DNA of 27,018 bases from an uncultured Verrucomicrobiota bacterium (GTDB lineage Bacteria > Verrucomicrobiota > Verrucomicrobiia > Limisphaerales > UBA11358), in the NCBI GenBank assembly GCA_964249225.1, contig CAXUBD010000001.1, forward strand, positions 12,026 to 39,043, read 5' to 3'. This document shows positions 13,709 to 27,018 of the stretch, piece by piece. Position 1 is the stretch's first letter. Each line of letters begins with the position of its first letter. Under the pieces are notes generated by a model, which had not been told where the DNA came from, made no database searches, and saw only the letters and a list, made by a program, of their open reading frames with translations. A program made the translations under genes and the position numbers.

Positions 13709-15484
13709 ATGACCAGTCAAGCAATTCAACCTGATATTTTTGCCACGGGAGTCGTCAATTTGGAGGCATGTTCCAAGTCCCAAGTCGGGGCGGGGCGTTA
13801 CACGCTTGTAAAAATTCTGGGGCGCGGCGGCATGGGCGTCGTCTGGCTGGCGCGTGATGAATTGCTCGCCACCGATGTCGCGCTGAAATTCCTGCCGCCG
13901 CAAATCCGGTTTGATTCCGCCGCGCTGGATGATTTGCGCCGGGAAACTTCGCGCAGCCGGAAATTGACGCATCCGAACATCATCCGCATCCACGATTTTT
14001 ACGATGCGAAAAATGAAGAGGCATTCATTTCGATGGAATATGTGGAAGGCTCGAATCTCGCAGGTGCGCGTGTCGAAAAATCGCAGCGCGTCCTGACGTG
14101 GGAATCGCTCGCACCGCTGGTCCGGCAACTTTGCGAAGGTTTGGAATACGCGCACGACGAACGCGTGATTCATCGCGATTTAAAGCCGGCGAACCTGATG
14201 CTTGATGCCAAAGGCCGCTTGAAGCTCGCAGACTTCGGCATCGCGCGGACGCTCAACGACACGATGACGCGCGTTTCGATGAATCCGAGCACCAGTGGCA
14301 CGTTGCTTTATATGAGCCCGCAACAGCTTGAGGGCAAATCGCCCCGCGTGACGGACGACATTTATGCTCTAGGCGCGACGCTTTATGAATTGTTGACCAG
14401 CAAGCCGCCGTTTTTCTCCGGAGATTTTTTGCATCAAGTCCGTCATGCCGCGCCCGTGTCATTGCGCAAGCGCTTGAAAGAATGGGAAATCGCCAATGAA
14501 ATTCCAGCGGAAGTTGAAACCGTCATTTTAGCCTGCCTCGCCAAAGACGAAACCAAACGTCCACAAAGCGCCCGGGCGGTCGCCGTGCAATTGGGATTGG
14601 TCGCGGACAATGCGCCGCGAAAATTTCATCACAAATTTTCGCGGAATGATTTTTGTATCACCGCCGTCGGAACCGTTGCGGCCGCGATCTTTTTGCATCT
14701 GGGCTTTACCGGCCTCACCCAAAAAACTTCGGCCGCGATTCCCGACAAACCAATCGCCCTGGCACCCGGGCCGAAACCGGCTTCCGATCCATGGGAAGAA
14801 AATTTCAATGACAAGCCAACCGCCAAAAACAAGACTCCCGAACTTCTTCCGGCGGCCCCGGCGGTCAAGGCCGGCGCACCGGTGGAAAAAATGATTGAAC
14901 CGCCTGCGGTCCGGCAAAGCATGGGAGAAAAAATAACCGCCCTGATTCTGCCGGCGCCCGCGCCAAATCAGCCGGAAAATTTCACGGCGCTGCAACTGGT
15001 GAAATTAGGCGATCATTATGTCAGCGAAGATTCCCATGATCAGGTGATCCAAATTATTTCAGACAAAAGCGTTGATGACCTCGCGCCAAAAAGCTGGCGC
15101 GTGATTTATCACAACCAGCAAGCCACGTTTCACGCGACCGAAGTCCAGTTTATGGACGGAAAAATGGTCCGCGTGCGCGAGCCAAATCGGGTCTTGCAAA
15201 TATTCGCGCCGAACGCGCGCAAAACATTTGACCTGGCTAAAGTAAGACTGGATTCCGACGACGCGCTCAAAATCGTGATGGATTTGCCGGAAGTGCGCGC
15301 GGCTTCCGTTATCGCCGTGCAAATGGAACTGGATCGCGGCTACGGCGGGCTGCCGGTTTGGAGCGTGGATTTATTTGGCGAAAGTCAATCCAAGCTCGCC
15401 GACGAAAAAGATCTCGGCACCATTTCCTTGCTGGCCGACAGCGGGAAAATTTTAAAAAATACGCTCATCAAAAAAAGCGAATGA
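13709..15484 (+). CDS. Hanks-type Ser/Thr protein kinase with TM and extracytoplasmic C-terminal domain
   Basis: LGRGGMGVVW, VALKF, IHRDLKPAN, DFG, GTLLYMSPQQ, DDIYALG; TM around ITAVGTVAAAIFLHLGF; Pro-rich linker. Confidence 0.93.
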   Translation: MTSQAIQPDIFATGVVNLEACSKSQVGAGRYTLVKILGRGGMGVVWLARDELLATDVALKFLPPQIRFDSAALDDLRRETSRSRKLTHPNIIRIHDFYDAKNEEAFISMEYVEGSNLAGARVEKSQRVLTWESLAPLVRQLCEGLEYAHDERVIHRDLKPANLMLDAKGRLKLADFGIARTLNDTMTRVSMNPSTSGTLLYMSPQQLEGKSPRVTDDIYALGATLYELLTSKPPFFSGDFLHQVRHAAPVSLRKRLKEWEIANEIPAEVETVILACLAKDETKRPQSARAVAVQLGLVADNAPRKFHHKFSRNDFCITAVGTVAAAIFLHLGFTGLTQKTSAAIPDKPIALAPGPKPASDPWEENFNDKPTAKNKTPELLPAAPAVKAGAPVEKMIEPPAVRQSMGEKITALILPAPAPNQPENFTALQLVKLGDHYVSEDSHDQVIQIISDKSVDDLAPKSWRVIYHNQQATFHATEVQFMDGKMVRVREPNRVLQIFAPNARKTFDLAKVRLDSDDALKIVMDLPEVRAASVIAVQMELDRGYGGLPVWSVDLFGESQSKLADEKDLGTISLLADSGKILKNTLIKKSE

Positions 15485-17055
15485 AAGCCGACGTCGCGCC
15501 GCCGCTTCATCTGTCGCTGCGTTTTGGCGAACAACGCTGGCAAAAAAGTTTCCACCAGCCATTTATCATCATTGGCCGCGCCAGCGGTGCCATGCTGCCG
15601 GATCTGGATTTGTCCCTCGACATCAACATTTCGCGGCGGCAGGCGCGCATCTGGCGCGAGGATGACGCCTGCTGGCTCGAAGATTTGGGCAGCAAATTCG
15701 GAACGAGAATCAACGGCTGCAGGCTGGGCATCAACGCCAAACAAAAATTGTCCGCCGGCGACTTGATCAAAATGGGCGACACGGAAATTCAAGTGGAAAT
15801 TCCGAACGAAGCTGCCGCCAATGTTTCAAAAAATAATTTAACCGACACCATTTCCATTTCCACATCGCTCGACGCGACCGAAAATAATTTGAGTCTGCCC
15901 GCGCCGCGCGGCAAATCAAAATCCGACTATTCCCGCCCGTTCCTCGATTTGGTTTTGGAATTAAACAATCAAACCGAACTCGCACAACTTCTGCCTGCGA
16001 TATTGAATCAGACCGTGGATTTGATTCCCGGCGCCAAACGCGGCACGTTGCTGTTGCGCGGCCCGGACCGCGAAACGCTCGTGCTCGCGGCGTTTGTTTC
16101 TGATGGCGAGCCCGCCGTCAGCGAAACGCTCGCGCGCCGCGCGCTGGCGGAAAAAAAAGGCTTTATCTGGCGGCAAAATTTTCAAGGCGATCCCGGCTTG
16201 AGCATTCAACGCCATCAAATCGCCTCCGGCATGTATGCGCCGCTGGTTTGCCGTGGCGAAACCCTCGGCGTCATTTGCGTGGACAGCCCGTCGCGCGATT
16301 CTATTTTTTCGGAAGACGATTTGCGCCTGCTGCTCGCCGTCGCGCACTTCGCCGCGACTTCCGTGGCGAATCAGCAACTTCAAGAAAGTTTGCGCGACAA
16401 CGCGAAATTGCTCGAACGCCTGCTCACAAATTTTTCGCCGAAACTGCGCGGAACCCTTTTGGAAAAAGCGCGGCTCGGACGTTTGCGGCCCGGCGGCGAA
16501 AAATCCGAAGTCACCATTTTATTTTCCGACATCCGCGATTTCACGACCAAAAGCGCGAACATGGATCCGGCGGACGTCGTTGAAATGTTGAACGATTATC
16601 TGCCCGCGCTCGGCCAGGCGATTTTTCCATTCCACGGCACGATTGACAAATTTTTAGGCGACGCCGTGCTCGCCGTTTTTCGCAGCCCCGAGCCCGATTC
16701 GCGCCCGCATGAAAAAGCCGTGCGCACCGCGCTGGCGATGCAATCCGCCGTTGCCAAAGTCAGCGCCCAGCGCGCCGCCAAAGGCGAAACGGTTTGCGAA
16801 ATTGGAATCGGCATTCATTGCGGCGAAGTGTTGCACGGATTTATCGGCTCGGCGGAACGCCTGGAACTCACCGTCATCGGCGATGCCGTCAATCGCGCCT
16901 CGCGTTTTTGCAATCAGGCCAAAGCCGGGGAAATTTTGATCAGCTACGAATTGTATCAACACATTTTCACGCAGATCGAATACGAAAAAACCAGCATCAG
17001 CGCTAAAAATCTGGAAGCCATTCCAGCGTATCGCGTGAAAAAGATCCTTGCGTAA
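15481..17055 (+). CDS. FHA-GAF-class III adenylate cyclase
   Basis: FHA (IIIGRAS...ISRRQA...DLGSKFGTRING), GAF (SGMYAPL...GVICVDS...FSEDD), cyclase (ILFSDIRDFT, IDKFLGDAV, TVIGDAVNRASR). ATG 15481 overlaps the kinase stop. Confidence 0.92.
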   Translation: MKADVAPPLHLSLRFGEQRWQKSFHQPFIIIGRASGAMLPDLDLSLDINISRRQARIWREDDACWLEDLGSKFGTRINGCRLGINAKQKLSAGDLIKMGDTEIQVEIPNEAAANVSKNNLTDTISISTSLDATENNLSLPAPRGKSKSDYSRPFLDLVLELNNQTELAQLLPAILNQTVDLIPGAKRGTLLLRGPDRETLVLAAFVSDGEPAVSETLARRALAEKKGFIWRQNFQGDPGLSIQRHQIASGMYAPLVCRGETLGVICVDSPSRDSIFSEDDLRLLLAVAHFAATSVANQQLQESLRDNAKLLERLLTNFSPKLRGTLLEKARLGRLRPGGEKSEVTILFSDIRDFTTKSANMDPADVVEMLNDYLPALGQAIFPFHGTIDKFLGDAVLAVFRSPEPDSRPHEKAVRTALAMQSAVAKVSAQRAAKGETVCEIGIGIHCGEVLHGFIGSAERLELTVIGDAVNRASRFCNQAKAGEILISYELYQHIFTQIEYEKTSISAKNLEAIPAYRVKKILA

Positions 17056-19521: not shown

Positions 19522-19535
19522 GATCATCTTTGAGT

Positions 19536-19573
19536 GGGTTGGTAGCTCAGTCGGTAGAGCAGTGCCCTTTTAA
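19536..19573 (+). pseudogene. 5' half of tRNA-Lys(UUU), positions 1-38 only
   Basis: GGGTTGG-TA-GCTCAGTCGGTAGAGC-A-GTGCC-CTTTTAA, then TTCAAAAAGG, which cannot pair with GTGCC. No T arm or 3' acceptor found downstream in the window. Confidence 0.88.
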
Positions 19574-19712: not shown

Positions 19713-19845
19713 CGGGTTACAAGTCGGGTGCAAGTTTTTTTGGTGCCTTTAAGGCACTTTCTGCACCCAAATTTGAAGGCGACTTGCACCCGGAGATCAG
19801 TTCGACCCCGGTAATTGCTGATTAAAAAGCGGGTGCAAGTTTTTT
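19713..19845. repeat. Cluster of CGGGTGCAAGT direct and inverted repeats
   Basis: CGGGTTACAAGT 19713-19724, CGGGTGCAAGTTTTTT 19725-19740 and 19830-19845, inverted ACTTGCACCCG 19782-19792, partial CTGCACCC 19761-19768. Confidence 0.85.
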
Positions 19846-20405
19846 CAAATTCTAACGCCGCGACTTTGATTTTGGGTCTGCGTCGGTCTTTTAGAAATAG
19901 CGCGATCCAGTTTGATTTCAAAAGACTCGGCCACGATGCTCATGTCTTGGCGGGGATATTTTTCCGCAAGATGGTCGCGCACTCGTTCGGTCACGTCGTC
20001 TTTCCAAAACTTGAAAGTCTGTCGCTGGTCGCGCGTGAACGCTTGCAAAACTTCCCGCACGTCGTGGCCGCTGTTCACGACATCTTTCTTCGCGCCTGAA
20101 TTCAATGGAAGTGTTTCCACAACGGCAAATTCCAAGCCTGTGACCGTGCGCCGATGGCAGAGGGAAGCATTTTCCATTAAATCAACGTCGTGCTGCCATT
20201 GTGCGCCGTCGTTGGTTTGAATGATGCGGACTGACGATTGCAGGGCGGCTTTGAAAGCCTCGTTTGCCGTCGTTGTCAGATTGCGCTCAAGATTATGAAG
20301 GTTCTCACAGTCGGACTTGAATTGTTTCATGTGTTCCGCAAAAACGGTCATGGCCTCGGCGTTGGCCGTTTCGTGAAGCTGGGTTGGTCTTTCGTAGTAG
20401 TTCAT
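19845..20405 (-). CDS. Hypothetical element protein (186 aa) with basic C-terminal tail
   Basis: Natural-looking helical composition, ATG start, last gene of the XRE-xis-orf run. Ends KRPTQTQNQSRGVRI. Confidence 0.65.
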   Translation of the reverse strand: MNYYERPTQLHETANAEAMTVFAEHMKQFKSDCENLHNLERNLTTTANEAFKAALQSSVRIIQTNDGAQWQHDVDLMENASLCHRRTVTGLEFAVVETLPLNSGAKKDVVNSGHDVREVLQAFTRDQRQTFKFWKDDVTERVRDHLAEKYPRQDMSIVAESFEIKLDRAISKRPTQTQNQSRGVRI

Positions 20406-20413
20406 AAATCACC

Positions 20414-20632
20414 TCAATTAGTTTCCAGAAGTTTTAACAGTTCGGTTTTTGGCACGAGCAATTTGCCCCGGAGCGCGCGGCACGTTTTGAGTTTGCCGCG
20501 CTGAATCAGCCGGTAGATGCTGAAATAATGCACGCCCAGCATATCGGCGGCTTCCTGCACGGAATACGCGAGCCGCTCGGCGGGGGGTGCGATGGTTGTT
20601 TGTTGTTCTTCATTTGTTGGTGTGGTTTCCAT
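20414..20632 (-). CDS. Excisionase-like HTH DNA-binding protein (copy 1)
   Basis: ERLAYSVQEAADMLGVHYFSIYRLIQRGKL...LLVP, a MerR-type/xis winged-HTH pattern. Confidence 0.85.
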   Translation of the reverse strand: METTPTNEEQQTTIAPPAERLAYSVQEAADMLGVHYFSIYRLIQRGKLKTCRALRGKLLVPKTELLKLLETN

Positions 20633-20642
20633 GTGTCCTCCA

Positions 20643-20984
20643 TTAAAAATATTTTTTGGTCAGCAAGGCGGGATCAAATGAATCCGGTTTTAACACGAGG
20701 CCAAGTTTTTCATTGTGGATATGTTTGAGAATCATTTCCTCCACTGATTTGCTGGCATCGAATTTTGGATACAAAGCGTCTTTGGGAACGTCCAGCACGC
20801 TGGCCAGCCAGCACACTTGGTAGTCATAAACGTGAACCAACCGGCTTTCGATTTTGGAAACGCCGCTGCGAGAAATCATCCAGCCCCTCCGCTGCAACGC
20901 ATCGGCCAGATCGCCCTGCGTCCAGCGATTCTCGTCGCGGAACTTGCCGACCTGTCTGCCGACCAGATTGTTCGACACATTCAT
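20643..20984 (-). CDS. XRE-family HTH transcriptional regulator (copy 1)
   Basis: VGRQVGKFR...WTQGDLA...ISRSGVSKIE...LASVLDV. Confidence 0.85.
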   Translation of the reverse strand: MNVSNNLVGRQVGKFRDENRWTQGDLADALQRRGWMISRSGVSKIESRLVHVYDYQVCWLASVLDVPKDALYPKFDASKSVEEMILKHIHNEKLGLVLKPDSFDPALLTKKYF

Positions 20985-21140
20985 TTTCAACCGGCTCAAT
21001 TTCTCATTTGCGCGCCGAAATTTTGGCCTGAATTCAGGACAAAATGACGTTCCGGCTCATTTTTCCACGCACCGCCATTTTCATTGTTACCGTTCAGAAC
21101 AAAATTTTGCCGACGGTTTTACCACAATTCGTTTCACTAG

Positions 21141-21162
21141 GTTGTGATGAAATCATCACGGC
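21141..21162. promoter_or_regulatory. Palindromic operator-like site 1 (GTTGTGATG-AAAT-CATCACGGC)
   Basis: Perfect 6-bp inner arms; near-direct repeat of site 2. Confidence 0.65.
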
Positions 21163-21209
21163 TTTTCAGTCCGGCCTTTTGGCAATTTTGCCTCAATCCG
21201 TCTGTGATG

Positions 21210-21231
21210 GTTGTAATGAAATCATTACAAC
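21210..21231. promoter_or_regulatory. Palindromic operator-like site 2 (GTTGTAATG-AAAT-CATTACAAC)
   Basis: Perfect 9-bp inverted arms between divergent XRE genes. Confidence 0.7.
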
Positions 21232-21550
21232 TTTTATGATTGAAAAACCGGCCTCCCAAGACATGGCACGGCCATGTTTTTGGGAAGTGGGGGTCATCAA
21301 ACTGACAGCAAACCGGCGTCAGTTCTCGCCAATAAGCCTCAAGAGAGGTAGAAAACAGGCAAAATTGCCTGACCCATTATGGGATGAAGGGCATTATCGC
21401 ATCGGCTTTCGCCGACCTAGCCAAGATATAAATAATTCGGAGAATCAGGCGCTTTCGTCCTGCCTCAAGAAAACCAATAGCACAGCCGAATCAAAACGCA
21501 AGCCCGACAAAATAAAAATCGGCCGTTCAGATTTTGCGCCTTAAATTGAT

Positions 21551-21814
21551 ATGGATCACAATGCAAATGTCATTGGCCGAAACGTGGGCAAATTTCGGTA
21601 TCAAAACGGTTGGACTCAAGAGGAACTTGCTGCAAAAATGCAATTGTTGGGTTGTCACATAACCCGTCAGATTATTGCCAACATTGAAACTCGTCGTTCT
21701 TCTGTAGGCGACAAACGAATCGAGTATTTCGCAGAGGTCTTCGGTTTGGAAGTGGGCGATTTATTTCCGAAAAAACGACACTTCAGCGGGCGTATGGTGG
21801 GATTGGAAGCGTAA
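21551..21814 (+). CDS. XRE-family HTH transcriptional regulator (copy 2)
   Basis: IGRNVGKFR...WTQEELA...ITRQIIANIE...FAEVFGL; ungapped paralog of copy 1. Confidence 0.85.
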   Translation: MDHNANVIGRNVGKFRYQNGWTQEELAAKMQLLGCHITRQIIANIETRRSSVGDKRIEYFAEVFGLEVGDLFPKKRHFSGRMVGLEA

Positions 21815-21859
21815 AAAAGGCAGCATCAAAAGTTTGATGCTGCCATGCGTAACTAATTT

Positions 21860-22069
21860 TTATTCGGCGGTGTTTAGAAGTTTGACCAACTCGGAGCGTG
21901 GCACTAGCAATTTTCCTCGCAGCACCCGGCACGCCTTGAGTTTGCCTCGTTGAATCAACCGATAGGCGGTATAATAATTTATCCCAAGCATATCGGCTGA
22001 TTCTTGAATCGAATAAGCCAATCGTTCTGTTGTTGTCGTGGATGTTTCTGTTTTTTGTCCGTTTTCCAT
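21860..22069 (-). CDS. Excisionase-like HTH DNA-binding protein (copy 2)
   Basis: 39/51 identical to copy 1 over the ERLAY...KLL core (manual count). Confidence 0.85.
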   Translation of the reverse strand: MENGQKTETSTTTTERLAYSIQESADMLGINYYTAYRLIQRGKLKACRVLRGKLLVPRSELVKLLNTAE

Positions 22070-22090
22070 ATTTCCGTTGTGTTTGAGTGA

Positions 22091-22109
22091 TTGAACGGAT
22101 GTCGTTCAA
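22091..22109. promoter_or_regulatory. Palindrome TTGAACG-N5-CGTTCAA upstream of xis copy 2
   Basis: Perfect 7-bp inverted repeat 21 nt upstream of the ATG at 22069. Confidence 0.5.
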
Positions 22110-22336
22110 ATTCGTAATCGGCCTGGCGTCGCGCCCAGCCTTTTTATTGCGAATGAAAACAGAATTTCGCGGATTAAAATGTTACCCAAGCAGAATGAGC
22201 AAAAAGACGGTCGAAATCCTTTTGATCAGATTCAATTTTATGCCGTGAATTTTTGCCAAAGACTTTGTTTTGACTGTTCAAAACAGTGATTGCGCCAAAT
22301 TCAAATGGGCATAAATTATCTCCGTTAGGTGAAGCT

Positions 22337-22687: not shown

Positions 22688-22847
22688 AGACGACATGATT
22701 GTGACAGAAGACACTGGATGGCGCTCTAAAAATGTTAATCACCACCGCTCTTAAACAACCGTGCAGATTCCAAGCGTGCCTTCCTAAGTTGGACGCGTGA
22801 TAATGCAATAGTCGCAAAACGGTATCAAAACAGGCATGATATTTTTG

Positions 22848-25800
22848 ATGTCCGAGCCAGTTCAAAAGACGATAATTCCGTGGAAACGTTTTTGGTGTCG
22901 TTTCGGAGATGCAATCCATGTTGGAGAAGACCGACAGGGTTTTCTCACCGACCCCGAAGGCGAATTGTTCACGCGTCTGCACAATCCGCATCTTTTCACG
23001 TTCGACAAATTGCTGAATGAGAAATGCCTGATTCTATGTGGTGATCCCGGCACTGGCAAAAGCACTGTGCTTCAGCAGGCAAAATCCACCTTGGAAAATT
23101 CGCTTGGCGCAGACGGCAAGCTTATCTGGTTGGAATTCCGCGACGTGCCAAGTGATTCCGCTTTTGCACGACGAACATTTGAATCAGATGTTTGGAAGCA
23201 GTGGCAAAACTCCACGGGCAAACTTGTTCTGGTAGTGGATGGCGTTGACGAGGGTTTGGTCAAAATACCCGGCTTCGTCGCTTATCTGGCGAGTGAGTTG
23301 CGCAACGCACCGATTCAACGGCTTCAAATCGTGCTTGCGTGCCGTTCCGCCGTGTGGCCGGTTAGCGAAGGCGAGCAATTGATTCAGCTTTGGGGCATCA
23401 TTGAAAAACCCCCTGTTTTTGAGCTATGCCCATTACGTCATCGCGATGCCGTTCAGGCCGCAGAGATGGTGGGAATAGATGCAGTTAAGTTTATCCAGGC
23501 GATTTATCAGCAAAAGGTCGTCGGATTGGCGGCATTGCCGACAACTTTATTTTTCCTGCTGGATGAGTTTCGCGATGGTGGCGCATTTAGTGGGACGCAT
23601 CGGGAACTTTACGAACGAGGATGCCAGCGATTAGCGCGTGAAAATGACCCACAACGTATTGCAACGCTGCGGATGCTCCGAAATTCCGGTCGCGTCTCGA
23701 CGCCGGATGAAATTTACGAAGCCGCGCGTCGCCTTGCCGCGCTCCTTCTTCTATGCGGAAAATCAGCAATCCATATCGGCCCGATTGCAGATGCGAGCGC
23801 AGACGCCGATTTACATTTAAGCCAAGCGGTTGACAGTTCTGGTCTTGAAGTCAGTCCGCTCACAGAGGCCGTCTTTGACAACGCGGTTTGCAGCGCACTT
23901 TTTACGTCACGCGGACCACATAGGTTTGGATTTGCACATCAGACTTTCGCGGAATGCTTGGCAGCACAATTTCTGTCCCGCCTGCCGCTGGTGCAAATAA
24001 GAAAACTCCTGTGTGCTCGCGATGCCGGGGACGAACACGTCATTCCTCAATTGGCCGAAACAGCCGCATGGGTTGCCGGTATTCATGAAGATTTTTTTGA
24101 TTACCTGTGCCGGATCGAACCGGAAGCCTTGATACGAAGCGACATTTCAAAAGTTCAAAACCACCGGAAACAAGATTTGGTTGCGGCAATTTTGGAAAAG
24201 GCGAAGCGCGCGGATTTATTTGATGAAAGAAATTTTGACCGCTTTTTTAGCAGCCTAAAACACCCGCAGATTGCAAGCCAGCTTCGGCTTTATATTGCGG
24301 ACAAGACGCTCAACATCGTGGTGCGAAGAATGGCAATGAGCATTGCGCGCGAATGTGAGGTCATTGAATTGTGTGATGACTTTTTACGCATGATTCAAGA
24401 CGCGTCCGAAGCCCAGCAGTTTCGAGATCAGGCGGCTTACACGCTGGAGAATTTAACACCAGCCGCCCGGCTTGCCGAATTAATCCCACTTGCAACCGAA
24501 AAATCTGACCCGGATGACACCATACGCGGTTGCGCCATCCGTCGGCTCGTCCCAGAATTATGGTCGGTCTCACAAGCCGTGCCTTATCTTCATGCGCCGC
24601 GCAACGACCATTTTTTCGGTTCGTATCATTCGCTCCTGAAATATCACTTGCCCCGGCATCTCAAAGATGAGGACGCGCTGTTGATTTTGGAACTGCTTGT
24701 CCAAAAAACTCATTGTTTTGACACCATAAATGCCTTTCAAGAATTAGCCGAAGCCGCTTTCGTTCTGGCACTCAAAAATCTTTCAAAGCCCGACATCTGC
24801 CGGTTGGCGGTTCAAGTCTGGATGACGAAGGCAAAAAACTATCACCCACTGCCCCGCACTGCGGACTCGGCTGTTTTCAAATTATTTCGAGAGCGCGAAG
24901 ATTTGCGCCGAGAATTTGTCGCAGCCATCGTCAATGACCCGCAAATATCCGCTGACGACTTGATTCATTTTCGCAGCGGCGTTGGTTCGTTGTCTTCGCA
25001 GAATGATCTTGAATGGGCATTGCTTCAGATTGAAAAGTCGCCCCATGAACGACGAACGGCATGGGCTTCACTGATTTGGTCTGATTGCCAACCTGAATCC
25101 GCCTGCAAATGTTGGGATTTGTTGTTGCGGCAAATTAAAGAAATCCCCGAGCTGGAAAACAAATTCTCATGGCTGCGAGCATGGGATTTGGATGAGCCGA
25201 TTGCACGACAAGCGAAAGCGCAGTGGTTGAGGCAACAGCGATGGAAAAATCAGCATAAAAGACGAACACCAAGCCGGGACAATAAAAAATTACTAGAACA
25301 AGATTTTGCAGACATTGCCGCCGGAAAAACTTTCCGTTGGATTGAGCTTTGCGGTCAACTCACGGTGGAAGAAGACCAGACTCATATTTTTCACCCATTA
25401 ACTCACGATCTCACCGAATATCCGGGTTGGAAATGTGCCGACGAAGCTCGACGAAAAATCATTCGCGATGCCGCCAGAAATTTCCTCTTAAAACACAGTG
25501 ACGGTTATGCTGAAATTGGCGCTCCAACAAATTATTTTGAGCCTGGTTATATCGCAATATGGCTGCTTCGTGATGAAATTCGTGGTGACGCGGAATTAAG
25601 GACGGCAGTTGGCACGAAGTGGATTGATGCCTTGATTGGGCATTTCAACGGCGGGAGCGATTATTATCAGGAAACGGCGGCGCTGGCGTATGAATTAAGC
25701 CCCGACGCAACCTTGCGCGGATTCATCCGGGAGGCGAAAGCCGATGATAAGCAACACGGACAAATTCTCTCGCTGCACGGTTTTCGCAAATGTTGGGACG

Positions 25801-27018
25801 CGCGCTTCACTGCGGCGGCGTTGGATTTGATTCGCAATGGCAACCTCAAAAACGGCAGCATTGAATCCATTCTTCAAATCGTTGCGCCAATCGCACCAAT
25901 GGAAGCTGCCGCTTGTGCTGAACCGCTTCTTGATTCCGCATCGCTCGCAAACGCAGCAAACGATGAACGAACCGTCAATGTTTTAGCGGCGTGCATCGGT
26001 GGAATGCCTGCCGAGACATGGCACTTTGTGTGGCCAATCATTGAGGCCAATTCATCTTTGGCGGAAAAAGTTCTGACTCGCATTGCCGACCGAATAAATT
26101 ATCACCGGGAAAAATGCCTGCCAATGTTGACGGAAAAACAACTGGCTGATCTATATCTGAAAGTTCACAATTTTTTCCCGCCTGAAACTGATCCCGACTT
26201 CTCTCGCGGCGGATTTGTAAGTCCTCGCCAAAGTGTCGTGCATTTTCGTGGTGACATCATCGGCGCGCTGGAAGCGCGCGGAACAGAAGAGGCGTGCAAT
26301 GAGCTTTTACGGCTGGCGAATGCCTTGCCACGAGAAAACCTGTGGCTGCGCTGGCGCTATTACAACGCCCGAACGAGCAAGCGGCGCAAATCATGGATTC
26401 CACCAGAGCCAAAAATTGTCCTCGGTCTCGCTGCTCGTGCAGAGGCGCGGCTTGTTATTGATGCAGACGATCTCATGGAAGTCGTGCTGGAATCACTGAA
26501 CCGACTTCAAATCCAACTTACCCAAAACACTCTGCCTCGAAGCGAAGATTTGTGGAATTGGGATGGGGCCGATACACGGCGGCAAAACTTTCGCCACCTC
26601 GACGAAGCATTTTTATCGAATTATATTGCGCGCTGGCTACGCGATGATTTGGGTCAACGCGGAATTATCATTGGCCGAGAAGTGCAACCGCGCCTTGGGC
26701 AACGCACAGACATCCATGTCACTGCTGTGCCGCTTGAACAGACATCTTCTTTGCAAAATGTAACGGTGATTATTGAAATCAAAGGCTGTTGGAATAGTGA
26801 AGTGCGCACTGCAATTGACGCGCAACTTGTTGGCGACTATCTCCGTCCTAACGGCCTAACACACGGAATTTACTTGGTTGGTTGGTTTGTGTGCGACAAA
26901 TGGAGCAATCCGCAGAATAAATTGACGAGCCAAACATTTGCCGATGCGCAACAAGAAGTTGTTCAACTTGCCGCTGCGTATGACGGCAAAACCAATCCAG
27001 AGCGCATTGCCGCAATCG
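22848..27018 (+). CDS. NACHT/STAND NTPase with helical repeat region and C-terminal PD-(D/E)xK nuclease (>=1390 aa, 3'-partial)
   Basis: Frame translated by hand with no stop from ATG 22848 (alternative 22836) to the edge. Walker A GDPGTGKST (23040-23066), Walker B LVLVVDGVDE (23223-23252), sensor ACR, WHD FAHQTFAECLAA, C-terminal REVQ..RTDIHV...VIIEIKG. Confidence 0.9.
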   Translation, partial: MSEPVQKTIIPWKRFWCRFGDAIHVGEDRQGFLTDPEGELFTRLHNPHLFTFDKLLNEKCLILCGDPGTGKSTVLQQAKSTLENSLGADGKLIWLEFRDVPSDSAFARRTFESDVWKQWQNSTGKLVLVVDGVDEGLVKIPGFVAYLASELRNAPIQRLQIVLACRSAVWPVSEGEQLIQLWGIIEKPPVFELCPLRHRDAVQAAEMVGIDAVKFIQAIYQQKVVGLAALPTTLFFLLDEFRDGGAFSGTHRELYERGCQRLARENDPQRIATLRMLRNSGRVSTPDEIYEAARRLAALLLLCGKSAIHIGPIADASADADLHLSQAVDSSGLEVSPLTEAVFDNAVCSALFTSRGPHRFGFAHQTFAECLAAQFLSRLPLVQIRKLLCARDAGDEHVIPQLAETAAWVAGIHEDFFDYLCRIEPEALIRSDISKVQNHRKQDLVAAILEKAKRADLFDERNFDRFFSSLKHPQIASQLRLYIADKTLNIVVRRMAMSIARECEVIELCDDFLRMIQDASEAQQFRDQAAYTLENLTPAARLAELIPLATEKSDPDDTIRGCAIRRLVPELWSVSQAVPYLHAPRNDHFFGSYHSLLKYHLPRHLKDEDALLILELLVQKTHCFDTINAFQELAEAAFVLALKNLSKPDICRLAVQVWMTKAKNYHPLPRTADSAVFKLFREREDLRREFVAAIVNDPQISADDLIHFRSGVGSLSSQNDLEWALLQIEKSPHERRTAWASLIWSDCQPESACKCWDLLLRQIKEIPELENKFSWLRAWDLDEPIARQAKAQWLRQQRWKNQHKRRTPSRDNKKLLEQDFADIAAGKTFRWIELCGQLTVEEDQTHIFHPLTHDLTEYPGWKCADEARRKIIRDAARNFLLKHSDGYAEIGAPTNYFEPGYIAIWLLRDEIRGDAELRTAVGTKWIDALIGHFNGGSDYYQETAALAYELSPDATLRGFIREAKADDKQHGQILSLHGFRKCWDARFTAAALDLIRNGNLKNGSIESILQIVAPIAPMEAAACAEPLLDSASLANAANDERTVNVLAACIGGMPAETWHFVWPIIEANSSLAEKVLTRIADRINYHREKCLPMLTEKQLADLYLKVHNFFPPETDPDFSRGGFVSPRQSVVHFRGDIIGALEARGTEEACNELLRLANALPRENLWLRWRYYNARTSKRRKSWIPPEPKIVLGLAARAEARLVIDADDLMEVVLESLNRLQIQLTQNTLPRSEDLWNWDGADTRRQNFRHLDEAFLSNYIARWLRDDLGQRGIIIGREVQPRLGQRTDIHVTAVPLEQTSSLQNVTVIIEIKGCWNSEVRTAIDAQLVGDYLRPNGLTHGIYLVGWFVCDKWSNPQNKLTSQTFADAQQEVVQLAAAYDGKTNPERIAAI

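What the first reader, a model, noticed from the sequence alone, without database searches (positions are those of the whole stretch)
22848..27018. Single-gene NLR-like protein with inverted architecture: NACHT first, nuclease last
Seen: a hidden ORF of >=1390 aa. Walker A starts at residue 65, so there is no room for an N-terminal effector. It is followed by a NACHT-type Walker B (DGVDE), a winged helix, roughly 850 aa of helical HEAT/ARM-like sequence, then a PD-(D/E)xK motif (D about 1288, ExK about 1310-1312; REVQPRLGQRTDIHV...VIIEIKGCWN). It is cargo of a tRNA-integrated island. Established: characterised Avs/AVAST antiphage STANDs place the effector N-terminal and the sensor C-terminal and oligomerise on phage proteins. 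Inference: an antiphage pattern-recognition receptor whose DNase is at the distal end of the sensor and so needs a different activation geometry. The conserved-looking N-terminal PWKRFWC leader may be a family signature. I cannot confirm whether this family is already described.
Basis: partly seen in the sequence, partly recalled or inferred. Interest (0 to 1): 0.75.

Follow-up and report, generated by a model that had tools for sequence, protein, structure and literature searches.

The report
Erebus-like antiphage NACHT-nuclease gene
This gene encodes a large single-protein bacterial immune receptor (NLR-type ATPase switch, helical sensor, DNA-cutting domain at the tail); its unusual domain order is real, but it is shared with the already named antiphage Erebus/Hypnos (Avs10) proteins, so this is a divergent new member and not a new kind of system.

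Summary
An intact ORF runs from 22836/22848 to the window end, which is a scaffold gap that costs about 9-12 codons. It encodes a 45-residue conserved leader, a NACHT-type STAND NTPase, a helical-repeat sensor of about 760 residues, and a C-terminal PD-(D/E)xK domain with invariant E1257, D1292, E1314-x-K1316 and QxxxY.

The claim of a new "inverted" architecture does not hold. NCBIfam models EruA and HyoA ("NACHT domain-containing antiphage protein") match it collinearly from NTPase to nuclease. A profile-profile comparison with bona fide EruA proteins gives probability 100%, E 1e-76 over 1260 columns. EruA and HyoA most likely correspond to Erebus and Hypnos (van den Berg 2024), which Lee et al. 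(Nature 2026) group as Avs10, a sensor of phage major capsid protein.

The window protein scores far below both equivalog cut-offs. It belongs to a large unnamed sister clade found in at least 468 species genomes across many phyla. One homologue carries SIR2 in place of the nuclease, which marks the C-terminal module as the effector.

The gene sits in an island inserted at a tRNA-Lys gene, beside restriction-modification genes. This scan has flagged Erebus-like genes before (29 notes in at least 26 genomes). Interest is low to moderate.

The parts
22848..27018 (+). Erebus-like STAND/NACHT-nuclease gene. The probable start is ATG 22848 (an alternative in-frame ATG lies at 22836). The 3' end is cut by a scaffold gap, with about 9-12 codons missing.
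22863..23009 (+). Clade-specific N-terminal leader (residues 10-58 counted from 22836): IPWKRFWC...GFLxDPE. It is too short for an enzymatic effector, and it is absent from the EruA family.
   Evidence: W16, R18, W20, F36, L37, D39 and P40 are invariant or nearly so. The hhalign match to EruA begins only at residue 50.
23010..24155 (+). NACHT-type STAND NTPase module (NBD, helical domain 1, winged helix, helical domain 2; residues about 59-440). Walker A lies at 23040-23063, Walker B at 23226-23252, and the winged-helix His368 at 23937-23939.
   Evidence: Pfam nSTAND_NTPase5 E 8e-6 and NACHT E 0.07. EruA and HyoA profile hits. The AF2 model best matches NLRP2/3, NOD2, NLRC4 and Avs3/4.
24156..26429 (+). 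Alpha-helical repeat sensor (residues about 441-1198). It aligns collinearly with the EruA sensor but is highly diverged.
   Evidence: The AF2 model is all-helical from residue 404 to 640. AlphaRep/HEAT match E 1e-3. HEAT_2 in homologues. hhalign collinearity. Residues 800-1170 alone give no EruA hit.
26430..27017 (+). C-terminal PD-(D/E)xK nuclease-like effector domain (residues about 1199-1394). Catalytic codons: E1257 at 26604-26606, D1292 at 26709-26711, E1314 at 26775-26777, K1316 at 26781-26783, Q1330 at 26823-26825, Y1335 at 26838-26840.
   Evidence: Invariant motifs. AF2 pLDDT 87.6. Restriction-endonuclease folds dominate the VIA-align and AFDB matches. Homologous to the EruA C-terminus. 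Replaced by SIR2 in P0098.
19535..19573 (+). 5' half of a tRNA-Lys(UUU) gene ending in the anticodon loop. It marks the left junction of the island that carries the gene.
   Evidence: Sequence read. ARAGORN and Rfam do not call it. Synteny with same-genus genomes ends exactly at 19573, and the DNA beyond it is multi-copy in the genus.

Best explanation
The gene encodes a single-protein antiphage pattern-recognition receptor of the Erebus/Hypnos (Avs10) superfamily of bacterial NLR-like STAND NTPases. It belongs to a large, so far unnamed sister clade of EruA and HyoA. The proposed mechanism is as follows; step 1 and the domain assignments are shown here, and the rest is inferred by homology. 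(1) In the resting state the NACHT module is held closed on ADP; the Walker A, Walker B, sensor-1 Arg170 and winged-helix His368 residues are all intact. (2) The helical-repeat sensor of about 760 residues wraps a conserved phage protein made during infection. For Avs10 this is the HK97-fold major capsid protein, but the sensor here is too diverged to assume the same ligand. (3) Ligand binding opens the NACHT module, ATP replaces ADP, and the protein oligomerises. (4) Oligomerisation brings together the C-terminal PD-(D/E)xK domains, which work as dimers or tetramers in restriction enzymes. The result is unspecific DNA cleavage and abortive infection. The C-terminal position of the effector is a family trait and not a peculiarity of this gene. 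The gene is accessory cargo of a mobile island inserted in a tRNA-Lys gene.
For: Family assignment. NCBIfam EruA matches at E 2e-78, collinear over residues 56-1357 against profile positions 18-1278 of 1318; HyoA matches at E 8e-47. The nuclease region alone hits the EruA C-terminus at E 9e-23 and the HyoA C-terminus at E 2e-9. A profile of 43 family members against 20 EruA-type proteins gives probability 100%, E 1e-76, over 1260 collinear columns; three of those 20 pass the 1000-bit cut-off. The true EruA protein P0117 shares the motifs IEVKGxW, QLxxxY and GxYLVxWF. EruA members score only 108-145 bits on HyoA. The window protein (265 bits on EruA, 160 on HyoA) is therefore no further from EruA than Hypnos is, and Lee et al. 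place Erebus and Hypnos in one family, Avs10 (PMC13581612).

Fold. The NTPase model matches mammalian NLRs and Avs3/4. The C-terminal model matches restriction-endonuclease folds.

Effector role. Homologue P0098 aligns from the leader to residue 1198 and then carries a SIR2_2 (Dsr1-like) domain in place of the nuclease.

Defence and mobile context. A Vsr, GHKL-ATPase, Methyltransf_35 and Dcm cluster lies downstream. The gene was not found in the 24 other same-genus genomes searched, apart from one decayed relic. The 89% homologue lies inside a TrwC/TrwB conjugative element, and another lies next to an integrase and GmrSD. Copies occur on plasmids.
Against: No experiment exists on this clade. 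The protein scores 265 bits against the EruA equivalog cut-off of 1000, and PADLOC v2 gives no hit. The sensor segment 800-1170 has no detectable similarity to EruA on its own, so ligand identity cannot be transferred. Structural Z-scores for the nuclease domain (5-7.3) are within the range that unrelated models can reach, so the assignment rests on motif conservation plus the enrichment of restriction-enzyme folds. That EruA/HyoA correspond to Erebus/Hypnos is my inference from the names and the pairing. Neither the van den Berg 2024 paper nor the Lee et al. supplement could be read. The accessible text of Lee et al. does not say where the Avs10 effector lies. Adjacency to the R-M genes crosses a scaffold gap.
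Confidence: 0.85

Rival explanations
1. The protein is a defence STAND of the same superfamily, but the C-terminal PD-(D/E)xK-like domain is not the killing effector. It would instead act as a DNA-binding, oligomerisation or autoinhibition module, with toxicity arising from something else such as ATP depletion or a partner protein.
For: No nuclease assay exists for this clade. Structural Z-scores are moderate. Earlier notes of this scan describe Erebus-like genes coupled to a DUF4143 ATPase-nuclease partner, so helpers exist in some branches.
Against: The complete catalytic set (E, D, ExK, QxxxY) is invariant over 24-89% identity. The module is exchanged for a SIR2 NADase domain exactly at the domain boundary in P0098, which is the classic behaviour of effectors. 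No partner gene is conserved next to the gene in the window or in the contexts of two homologues.
Confidence: 0.08
2. The protein is a non-immune STAND NTPase, such as a signalling or regulatory protein, that merely shares ancestry with Erebus.
For: Lee et al. note that defence and non-defence STAND clades are interspersed. The protein is below every curated cut-off.
Against: It has a nuclease or SIR2 effector at the tail and a patchy distribution across phyla. It is carried on a conjugative element, on plasmids and on a tRNA island, and it neighbours R-M and GmrSD genes. A decayed copy exists in a congener, which is typical of defence-gene turnover.
Confidence: 0.04
3. The gene is an assembly artefact or a pseudogene in this metagenome-assembled genome.
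For: The genome has 335 contigs, the gene abuts a 10-N scaffold gap, and its stop codon is not seen.
Against: The 4.18 kb frame is uninterrupted and all conserved residues are intact. Independent assemblies hold 89-92% identical full-length copies of 1403 aa.
Confidence: 0.03

Closest known systems
Erebus (NCBIfam NF058535 'NACHT domain-containing antiphage protein EruA'; van den Berg et al. 2024), grouped with Hypnos and bNACHT64 as Avs10 (Lee et al., Nature 2026, PMC13581612)
   Same: It is a single gene of about 1300-1400 aa with the NACHT NTPase directly at the N-terminus, a long helical sensor, and a homologous C-terminal PD-(D/E)xK-like domain carrying the IEVKGxW, QLxxxY and GxYLVxWF motifs. 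Homology is end-to-end and collinear.
   Different: It scores only 265 bits against the 1000-bit cut-off and shares about 25% identity in the NTPase region. The sensor is about 15% identical in the profile alignment and undetectable for residues 800-1170. The window clade has an extra conserved leader of about 45 residues (PWKRFW), which EruA lacks. The ligand (major capsid protein for Avs10) is unverified here.
Hypnos (NCBIfam NF058534, HyoA)
   Same: It has the same architecture. The NTPase, winged-helix and early sensor regions (residues 192-825) and the C-terminal domain (E 2e-9) are homologous.
   Different: It scores 160 bits against a cut-off of 1200, so it is more distant than EruA.
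Avs1-5 / AVAST (Gao et al. 2020, 2022)
   Same: It follows the same STAND logic: a helical sensor binds a conserved phage protein, the NTPase oligomerises, and a nuclease or other effector kills. Avs3 and Avs4 are among the structural matches of the NTPase module.
   Different: Avs1-5 carry the effector N-terminal to the NTPase. Here there is no N-terminal effector and the nuclease follows the sensor.
Dsr1 / SIR2-type defence effectors
   Same: One homologue of the window protein (P0098) ends in a SIR2_2 domain that weakly matches Dsr1.
   Different: The window protein itself carries the nuclease and not SIR2.

Membership tests
Erebus/Hypnos/Avs10 superfamily | NACHT-type STAND NTPase at the extreme N-terminus with no N-terminal effector domain | tested here: met
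   Walker A lies at residues 69-76. Only a 45-60 residue leader precedes it. The fold matches NLRs.
Erebus/Hypnos/Avs10 superfamily | Full-length collinear homology to EruA/HyoA proteins | tested here: met
   hhalign of A1 against A4 gives probability 100%, E 1e-76, 1260 columns. hmmscan EruA E 2e-78 and HyoA E 8e-47.
Erebus/Hypnos/Avs10 superfamily | Homologous C-terminal PD-(D/E)xK-like domain | tested here: met
   Residues 1170-1394 match EruA profile positions 1111-1278 at E 9e-23 and HyoA positions 1275-1396 at E 2e-9. hhalign against the true EruA protein P0117 gives 97%.
EruA equivalog (NF058535) | Score at or above the curated cut-off of 1000 bits | tested here: not met
   264.8 bits. 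Seven clade members from cultured and uncultured genomes score 217-293 bits.
HyoA equivalog (NF058534) | Score at or above the curated cut-off of 1200 bits | tested here: not met
   159.7 bits.
Avs10 as defined by Lee et al. 2026 | Membership of the same sensor structural cluster, and activation by the HK97-fold major capsid protein | not testable with these tools
   The supplementary tables are not held. No complex prediction or experiment is available here.
Erebus/Hypnos/Avs10 superfamily | Experimentally shown antiphage activity | not testable with these tools
   Only contextual support is available: an R-M neighbourhood, carriage on mobile elements, and a patchy distribution.
Avs1-5 (AVAST) | Effector domain N-terminal to the STAND NTPase | tested here: not met
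   No domain precedes the P-loop. The effector is C-terminal.
PD-(D/E)xK nuclease superfamily (C-terminal domain) | An alpha-beta-beta-beta-alpha-beta core with D on strand 2 and (D/E)xK on strand 3 | tested here: met
   In the AF2 model, D1292 lies at the start of strand 124-130 and E1314/K1316 lie on strand 140-148. Restriction-enzyme folds fill the top ranks (Z 5-7.3; AFDB E down to 4e-16). No Pfam or PDB sequence hit was found.

The most novel reading that the evidence does not exclude
This clade, marked by the PWKRFW leader and the IEVKGCW nuclease motif and found in at least 468 species genomes, may be a third functionally distinct branch beside Erebus and Hypnos. Its diverged sensor would then recognise a phage protein other than the major capsid protein. 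Its conserved N-terminal leader would act as a clade-specific latch or oligomerisation element. In addition, no member of the whole superfamily has a solved structure, so how a nuclease placed beyond the sensor is assembled by NACHT oligomerisation is still open.
Probability: 0.3. Interest if true: 0.5.

Novelty: new member of a known kind. Interest (0 to 1): 0.25.

Why it matters
The finding shows that the apparently inverted NLR layout (switch first, nuclease last) is not a one-off. It is the hallmark of a very large, horizontally mobile antiphage superfamily (Erebus/Hypnos/Avs10), of which current annotation resources name only two branches. The branch found here is widespread in Verrucomicrobiota, Cyanobacteria, Firmicutes, Chloroflexota, Planctomycetota and other phyla. 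It is still annotated as 'hypothetical protein', and PADLOC v2 misses it. A dedicated profile for this clade would therefore improve defence-system annotation. The value for biology is incremental, covering ligand specificity and the activation geometry of a C-terminal effector, and is not conceptual.

Tried and rejected
- PADLOC v2 gave no meaningful hit.
- Pfam gave only sub-threshold P-loop and nSTAND hits, and nothing for residues 640-1394.
- PDB sequence searches with four profiles (the nuclease domain, the N-terminal 640 residues, the whole family, and the EruA family) found no relatives.
- Foldseek against the PDB gave no significant match for the nuclease model. VIA-align and the AFDB clusters were needed instead.
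- Literature searches for the gene symbols EruA and HyoA found nothing relevant. The link to Erebus/Hypnos came through a search on the system names.
- van den Berg 2024 and Kibby 2023 are not held, and the supplement of Lee et al. is not held.
- PF28130 (DUF8371), which some homologues carry, is not in the local Pfam copy.
- I looked for the DUF4143 ATPase partner described in earlier notes of this scan. None is present next to this gene.
- I looked for an integrase in the island. None lies within the available 24.5 kb to the contig end.
- I rejected the idea that the leader is a hidden effector: it is about 45 residues long and has no family match.
Full report
**Observation.** The + strand holds one uninterrupted frame from 22836 to 27017 (1394 codons) that runs off the window. 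The window is G000:C1:12026-39043, and its last base abuts a run of 10 N, which is a scaffold gap. The nearest full-length homologue (P0002, 89% identity) has 1403 residues, so only about 9-12 C-terminal residues are lost.

**Anatomy.** An alignment of 43 homologues (24-89% identity) shows the following residues invariant or nearly so:
- Walker A: G74 and K75.
- Walker B: D135, D138 and E139.
- Sensor-1: R170.
- The winged-helix histidine H368, in the motif FGFAHQTFAECLAA.
- In the last 200 residues: E1257, E1282, D1292, E1314, K1316, Q1330 and Y1335.

An AlphaFold2 model of residues 1-640 (pLDDT 88) has as its best PDB matches NLRP2, NLRP3, NOD2, NLRP14, NLRC4/NAIP and the bacterial Avs4 and Avs3. 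From residue 404 onward the model is a helical repeat. A model of residues 1170-1394 (pLDDT 87.6) has the alpha-beta-beta-beta-alpha-beta core of PD-(D/E)xK enzymes, with D1292 and E1314-x-K1316 on consecutive strands. Foldseek against the PDB was not significant. An exhaustive VIA-align search ranked CinB nuclease, BamHI, BstYI, EcoT38I, McrC, SwaI, BglII, PaqCI, FokI, NgoMIV, the LlaBIII nuclease, Can2 and NucS at the top, with Z 5-7.3. AFDB clusters gave E down to 4e-16 to entries named restriction endonuclease, Mrr or PD-(D/E)XK, many of them also at the C-terminus of large proteins. The Z values alone are not decisive. Taken with the invariant catalytic set, they make the assignment secure.

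**What it is.** PADLOC v2 and Pfam are almost silent. NCBIfam release 20 has two models named 'NACHT domain-containing antiphage protein', EruA (NF058535) and HyoA (NF058534). EruA matches residues 56-1357 collinearly with profile positions 18-1278 of 1318 (E 2e-78, 265 bits), and HyoA matches at E 8e-47. I then scanned the protein in pieces:
- The nuclease region alone hits the C-terminus of EruA (E 9e-23) and of HyoA (E 2e-9).
- The NTPase part hits both models.
- Residues 450-800 hit EruA weakly.
- Residues 800-1170 hit nothing.

I collected EruA-type proteins. Three of them (P0116, P0117, P0119) pass the 1000-bit cut-off. A profile-profile comparison of the window's family with this set gives probability 100%, E 1e-76, and 1260 aligned columns from the P-loop to the last strand. 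The true EruA protein P0117 shares the motifs IEVKGxW, QLxxxY, GxYLVxWF and the terminal VLD. The layout of NACHT first and nuclease last is therefore the family layout of EruA and HyoA.

**Link to the literature.** The gene symbols are not in the searchable papers. Lee et al. (Nature 2026, PMC13581612) define 'Avs10 (Erebus/Hypnos/bNACHT64)', citing van den Berg et al. 2024 and Kibby et al. 2023. They report that Avs10 is triggered by HK97-fold major capsid proteins, binding the A-domain interface, and that mutating or deleting effector domains abolished cell death. That EruA and HyoA are the gene symbols for Erebus and Hypnos is my inference from the names and from the fact that the two NCBIfam families are homologous to each other. 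I could not read the primary paper. EruA members score only 108-145 bits on the HyoA model. The window protein scores 265 bits on EruA and 160 on HyoA, so it is no further from Erebus than Hypnos is, and it would very probably fall inside Avs10 as Lee et al. draw it. It is nevertheless not an equivalog of either.

**The clade.** A profile of the C-terminal domain finds 4838 representatives at 50% clustering with E <= 1e-3 and 1847 with E <= 1e-30. Most are about 1380-1420 residues long with the domain at the very end. In one genome per GTDB species, 468 genomes encode relatives. They span Verrucomicrobiota, Cyanobacteria, Bacillota, Chloroflexota, Planctomycetota, Acidobacteriota, Nitrospirota, Bacteroidota, a candidate-phyla-radiation genome and one archaeal MAG, and some copies are on plasmids. 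Seven of these, sampled across phyla, score 217-293 bits on EruA and 150-195 on HyoA. They therefore form one large sister clade that no curated model names, and plasmid records call them 'hypothetical protein'. Newer Pfam has DUF8371 (PF28130) on part of the superfamily. The N-terminal leader (I/L)PW(K/R)RFW...GFLxDPE is conserved throughout this clade but is not aligned to EruA. Its role is unknown.

**Effector logic.** Homologue P0098 aligns with the window protein from the leader to residue 1198, which is the start of the nuclease domain. It then continues with a SIR2_2 domain (E 2e-21) that weakly resembles Dsr1. Exchange of a nuclease for an NADase at a fixed boundary is the signature of a defence effector module, and it argues against a purely structural role for the C-terminal domain.

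**Context.** Sequence shared with same-genus genomes (tRNA-Gly, UbiE methyltransferase, MBL-fold hydrolase) ends exactly at window 19573. That is the last base of a tRNA-Lys(UUU) 5' half that stops in the anticodon loop. ARAGORN and Rfam do not call this fragment. The DNA beyond it (19843-22200: two HTH regulators and unknown ORFs) occurs in several copies elsewhere in congeners, as expected for a mobile element. GC content falls from about 0.55 to 0.45-0.50. The EruA profile search found no full-length copy in the 24 other same-genus genomes searched. One of them, G003, holds a relic in which residues 1-152 (frameshifted) are joined to residues 1312-1390. Past the scaffold gap lie Vsr, a GHKL ATPase, a Methyltransf_35 protein and a Dcm-type C5 methyltransferase. 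The 89% homologue sits between TrwC and TrwB/ParA genes of a conjugative element. Another homologue sits beside an integrase and a GmrSD_N gene. No partner gene is conserved, and the DUF4143 ATPase partner noted for other Erebus-like genes in this scan is absent here.

**Mechanism.** The shown parts are an intact NACHT switch, a helical sensor, an intact PD-(D/E)xK active site, modular exchange of the C-terminal effector, and mobile-element or defence-island carriage. The inferred parts, by homology with Avs10 and other Avs proteins, run in this order:
1. The sensor binds a conserved phage protein.
2. The NACHT module exchanges nucleotide and oligomerises.
3. The C-terminal nucleases are brought together, DNA is cleaved, and the infection aborts.

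I put about 0.4 on the ligand being a major capsid protein, because the distal sensor is not detectably similar to that of EruA. No member of the superfamily has a relative in the PDB copy searched.

**Verdict.** The novelty claim is not supported, because the architecture belongs to the named Erebus/Hypnos (Avs10) family. This scan has reached the same identification for Erebus-like genes on other DNA (29 notes in at least 26 genomes). I reached it here independently, before reading those notes. I class the gene as a new member of a known kind and give it low to moderate interest.

Noticed in passing
window 19535-19573: A tRNA-Lys(UUU) 5' half (acceptor stem, D arm, and anticodon stem and loop up to CTTTTAA) has no 3' half after it. 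Synteny with congeners ends exactly here. A second 100% copy of these 39 bases lies on G000 contig C89. In G013 the match runs without a break from the conserved flank across the junction at 19573 into the island, to about window 19950.
   Followed up: partly
G003:C17 about 209236-209937 (locus L006 1384-2085, minus strand): A congener carries a decayed relic of this gene. Residues 1-152 lie in three different frames and are joined directly to residues 1312-1390, at about 76% nucleotide identity. This amounts to an internal deletion of about 1160 codons.
   Followed up: partly
L002 382-4534 (G000:C1 39425-43577, just past the scaffold gap): This is a probable restriction-modification-type cluster: Vsr very-short-patch endonuclease, a GHKL (HATPase_c_3) ATPase of 472 aa matching phrog_20521 end to end, a Methyltransf_35 protein, and a Dcm-type C5 cytosine methyltransferase.
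   Followed up: partly
window 19843-22200: The island's left part (a 186-aa ORF, two HTH regulators and a 166-aa ORF, none with a known family) recurs in several copies per genome in same-genus relatives, for example at least three places in G017. It looks like the conserved backbone of a genus-specific mobile element with variable cargo.
   Followed up: no
protein P0098 (JGI metagenome, 1539 aa): This is a variant of the same family in which the C-terminal nuclease is replaced by a SIR2_2 (Dsr1-like) domain at the same boundary.
   Followed up: partly
window 13709-17055: Just outside the island lie a Ser/Thr protein kinase (591 aa) followed by an FHA-GAF-adenylate/guanylate cyclase protein (565 aa). 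This is a probable signalling pair.
   Followed up: no
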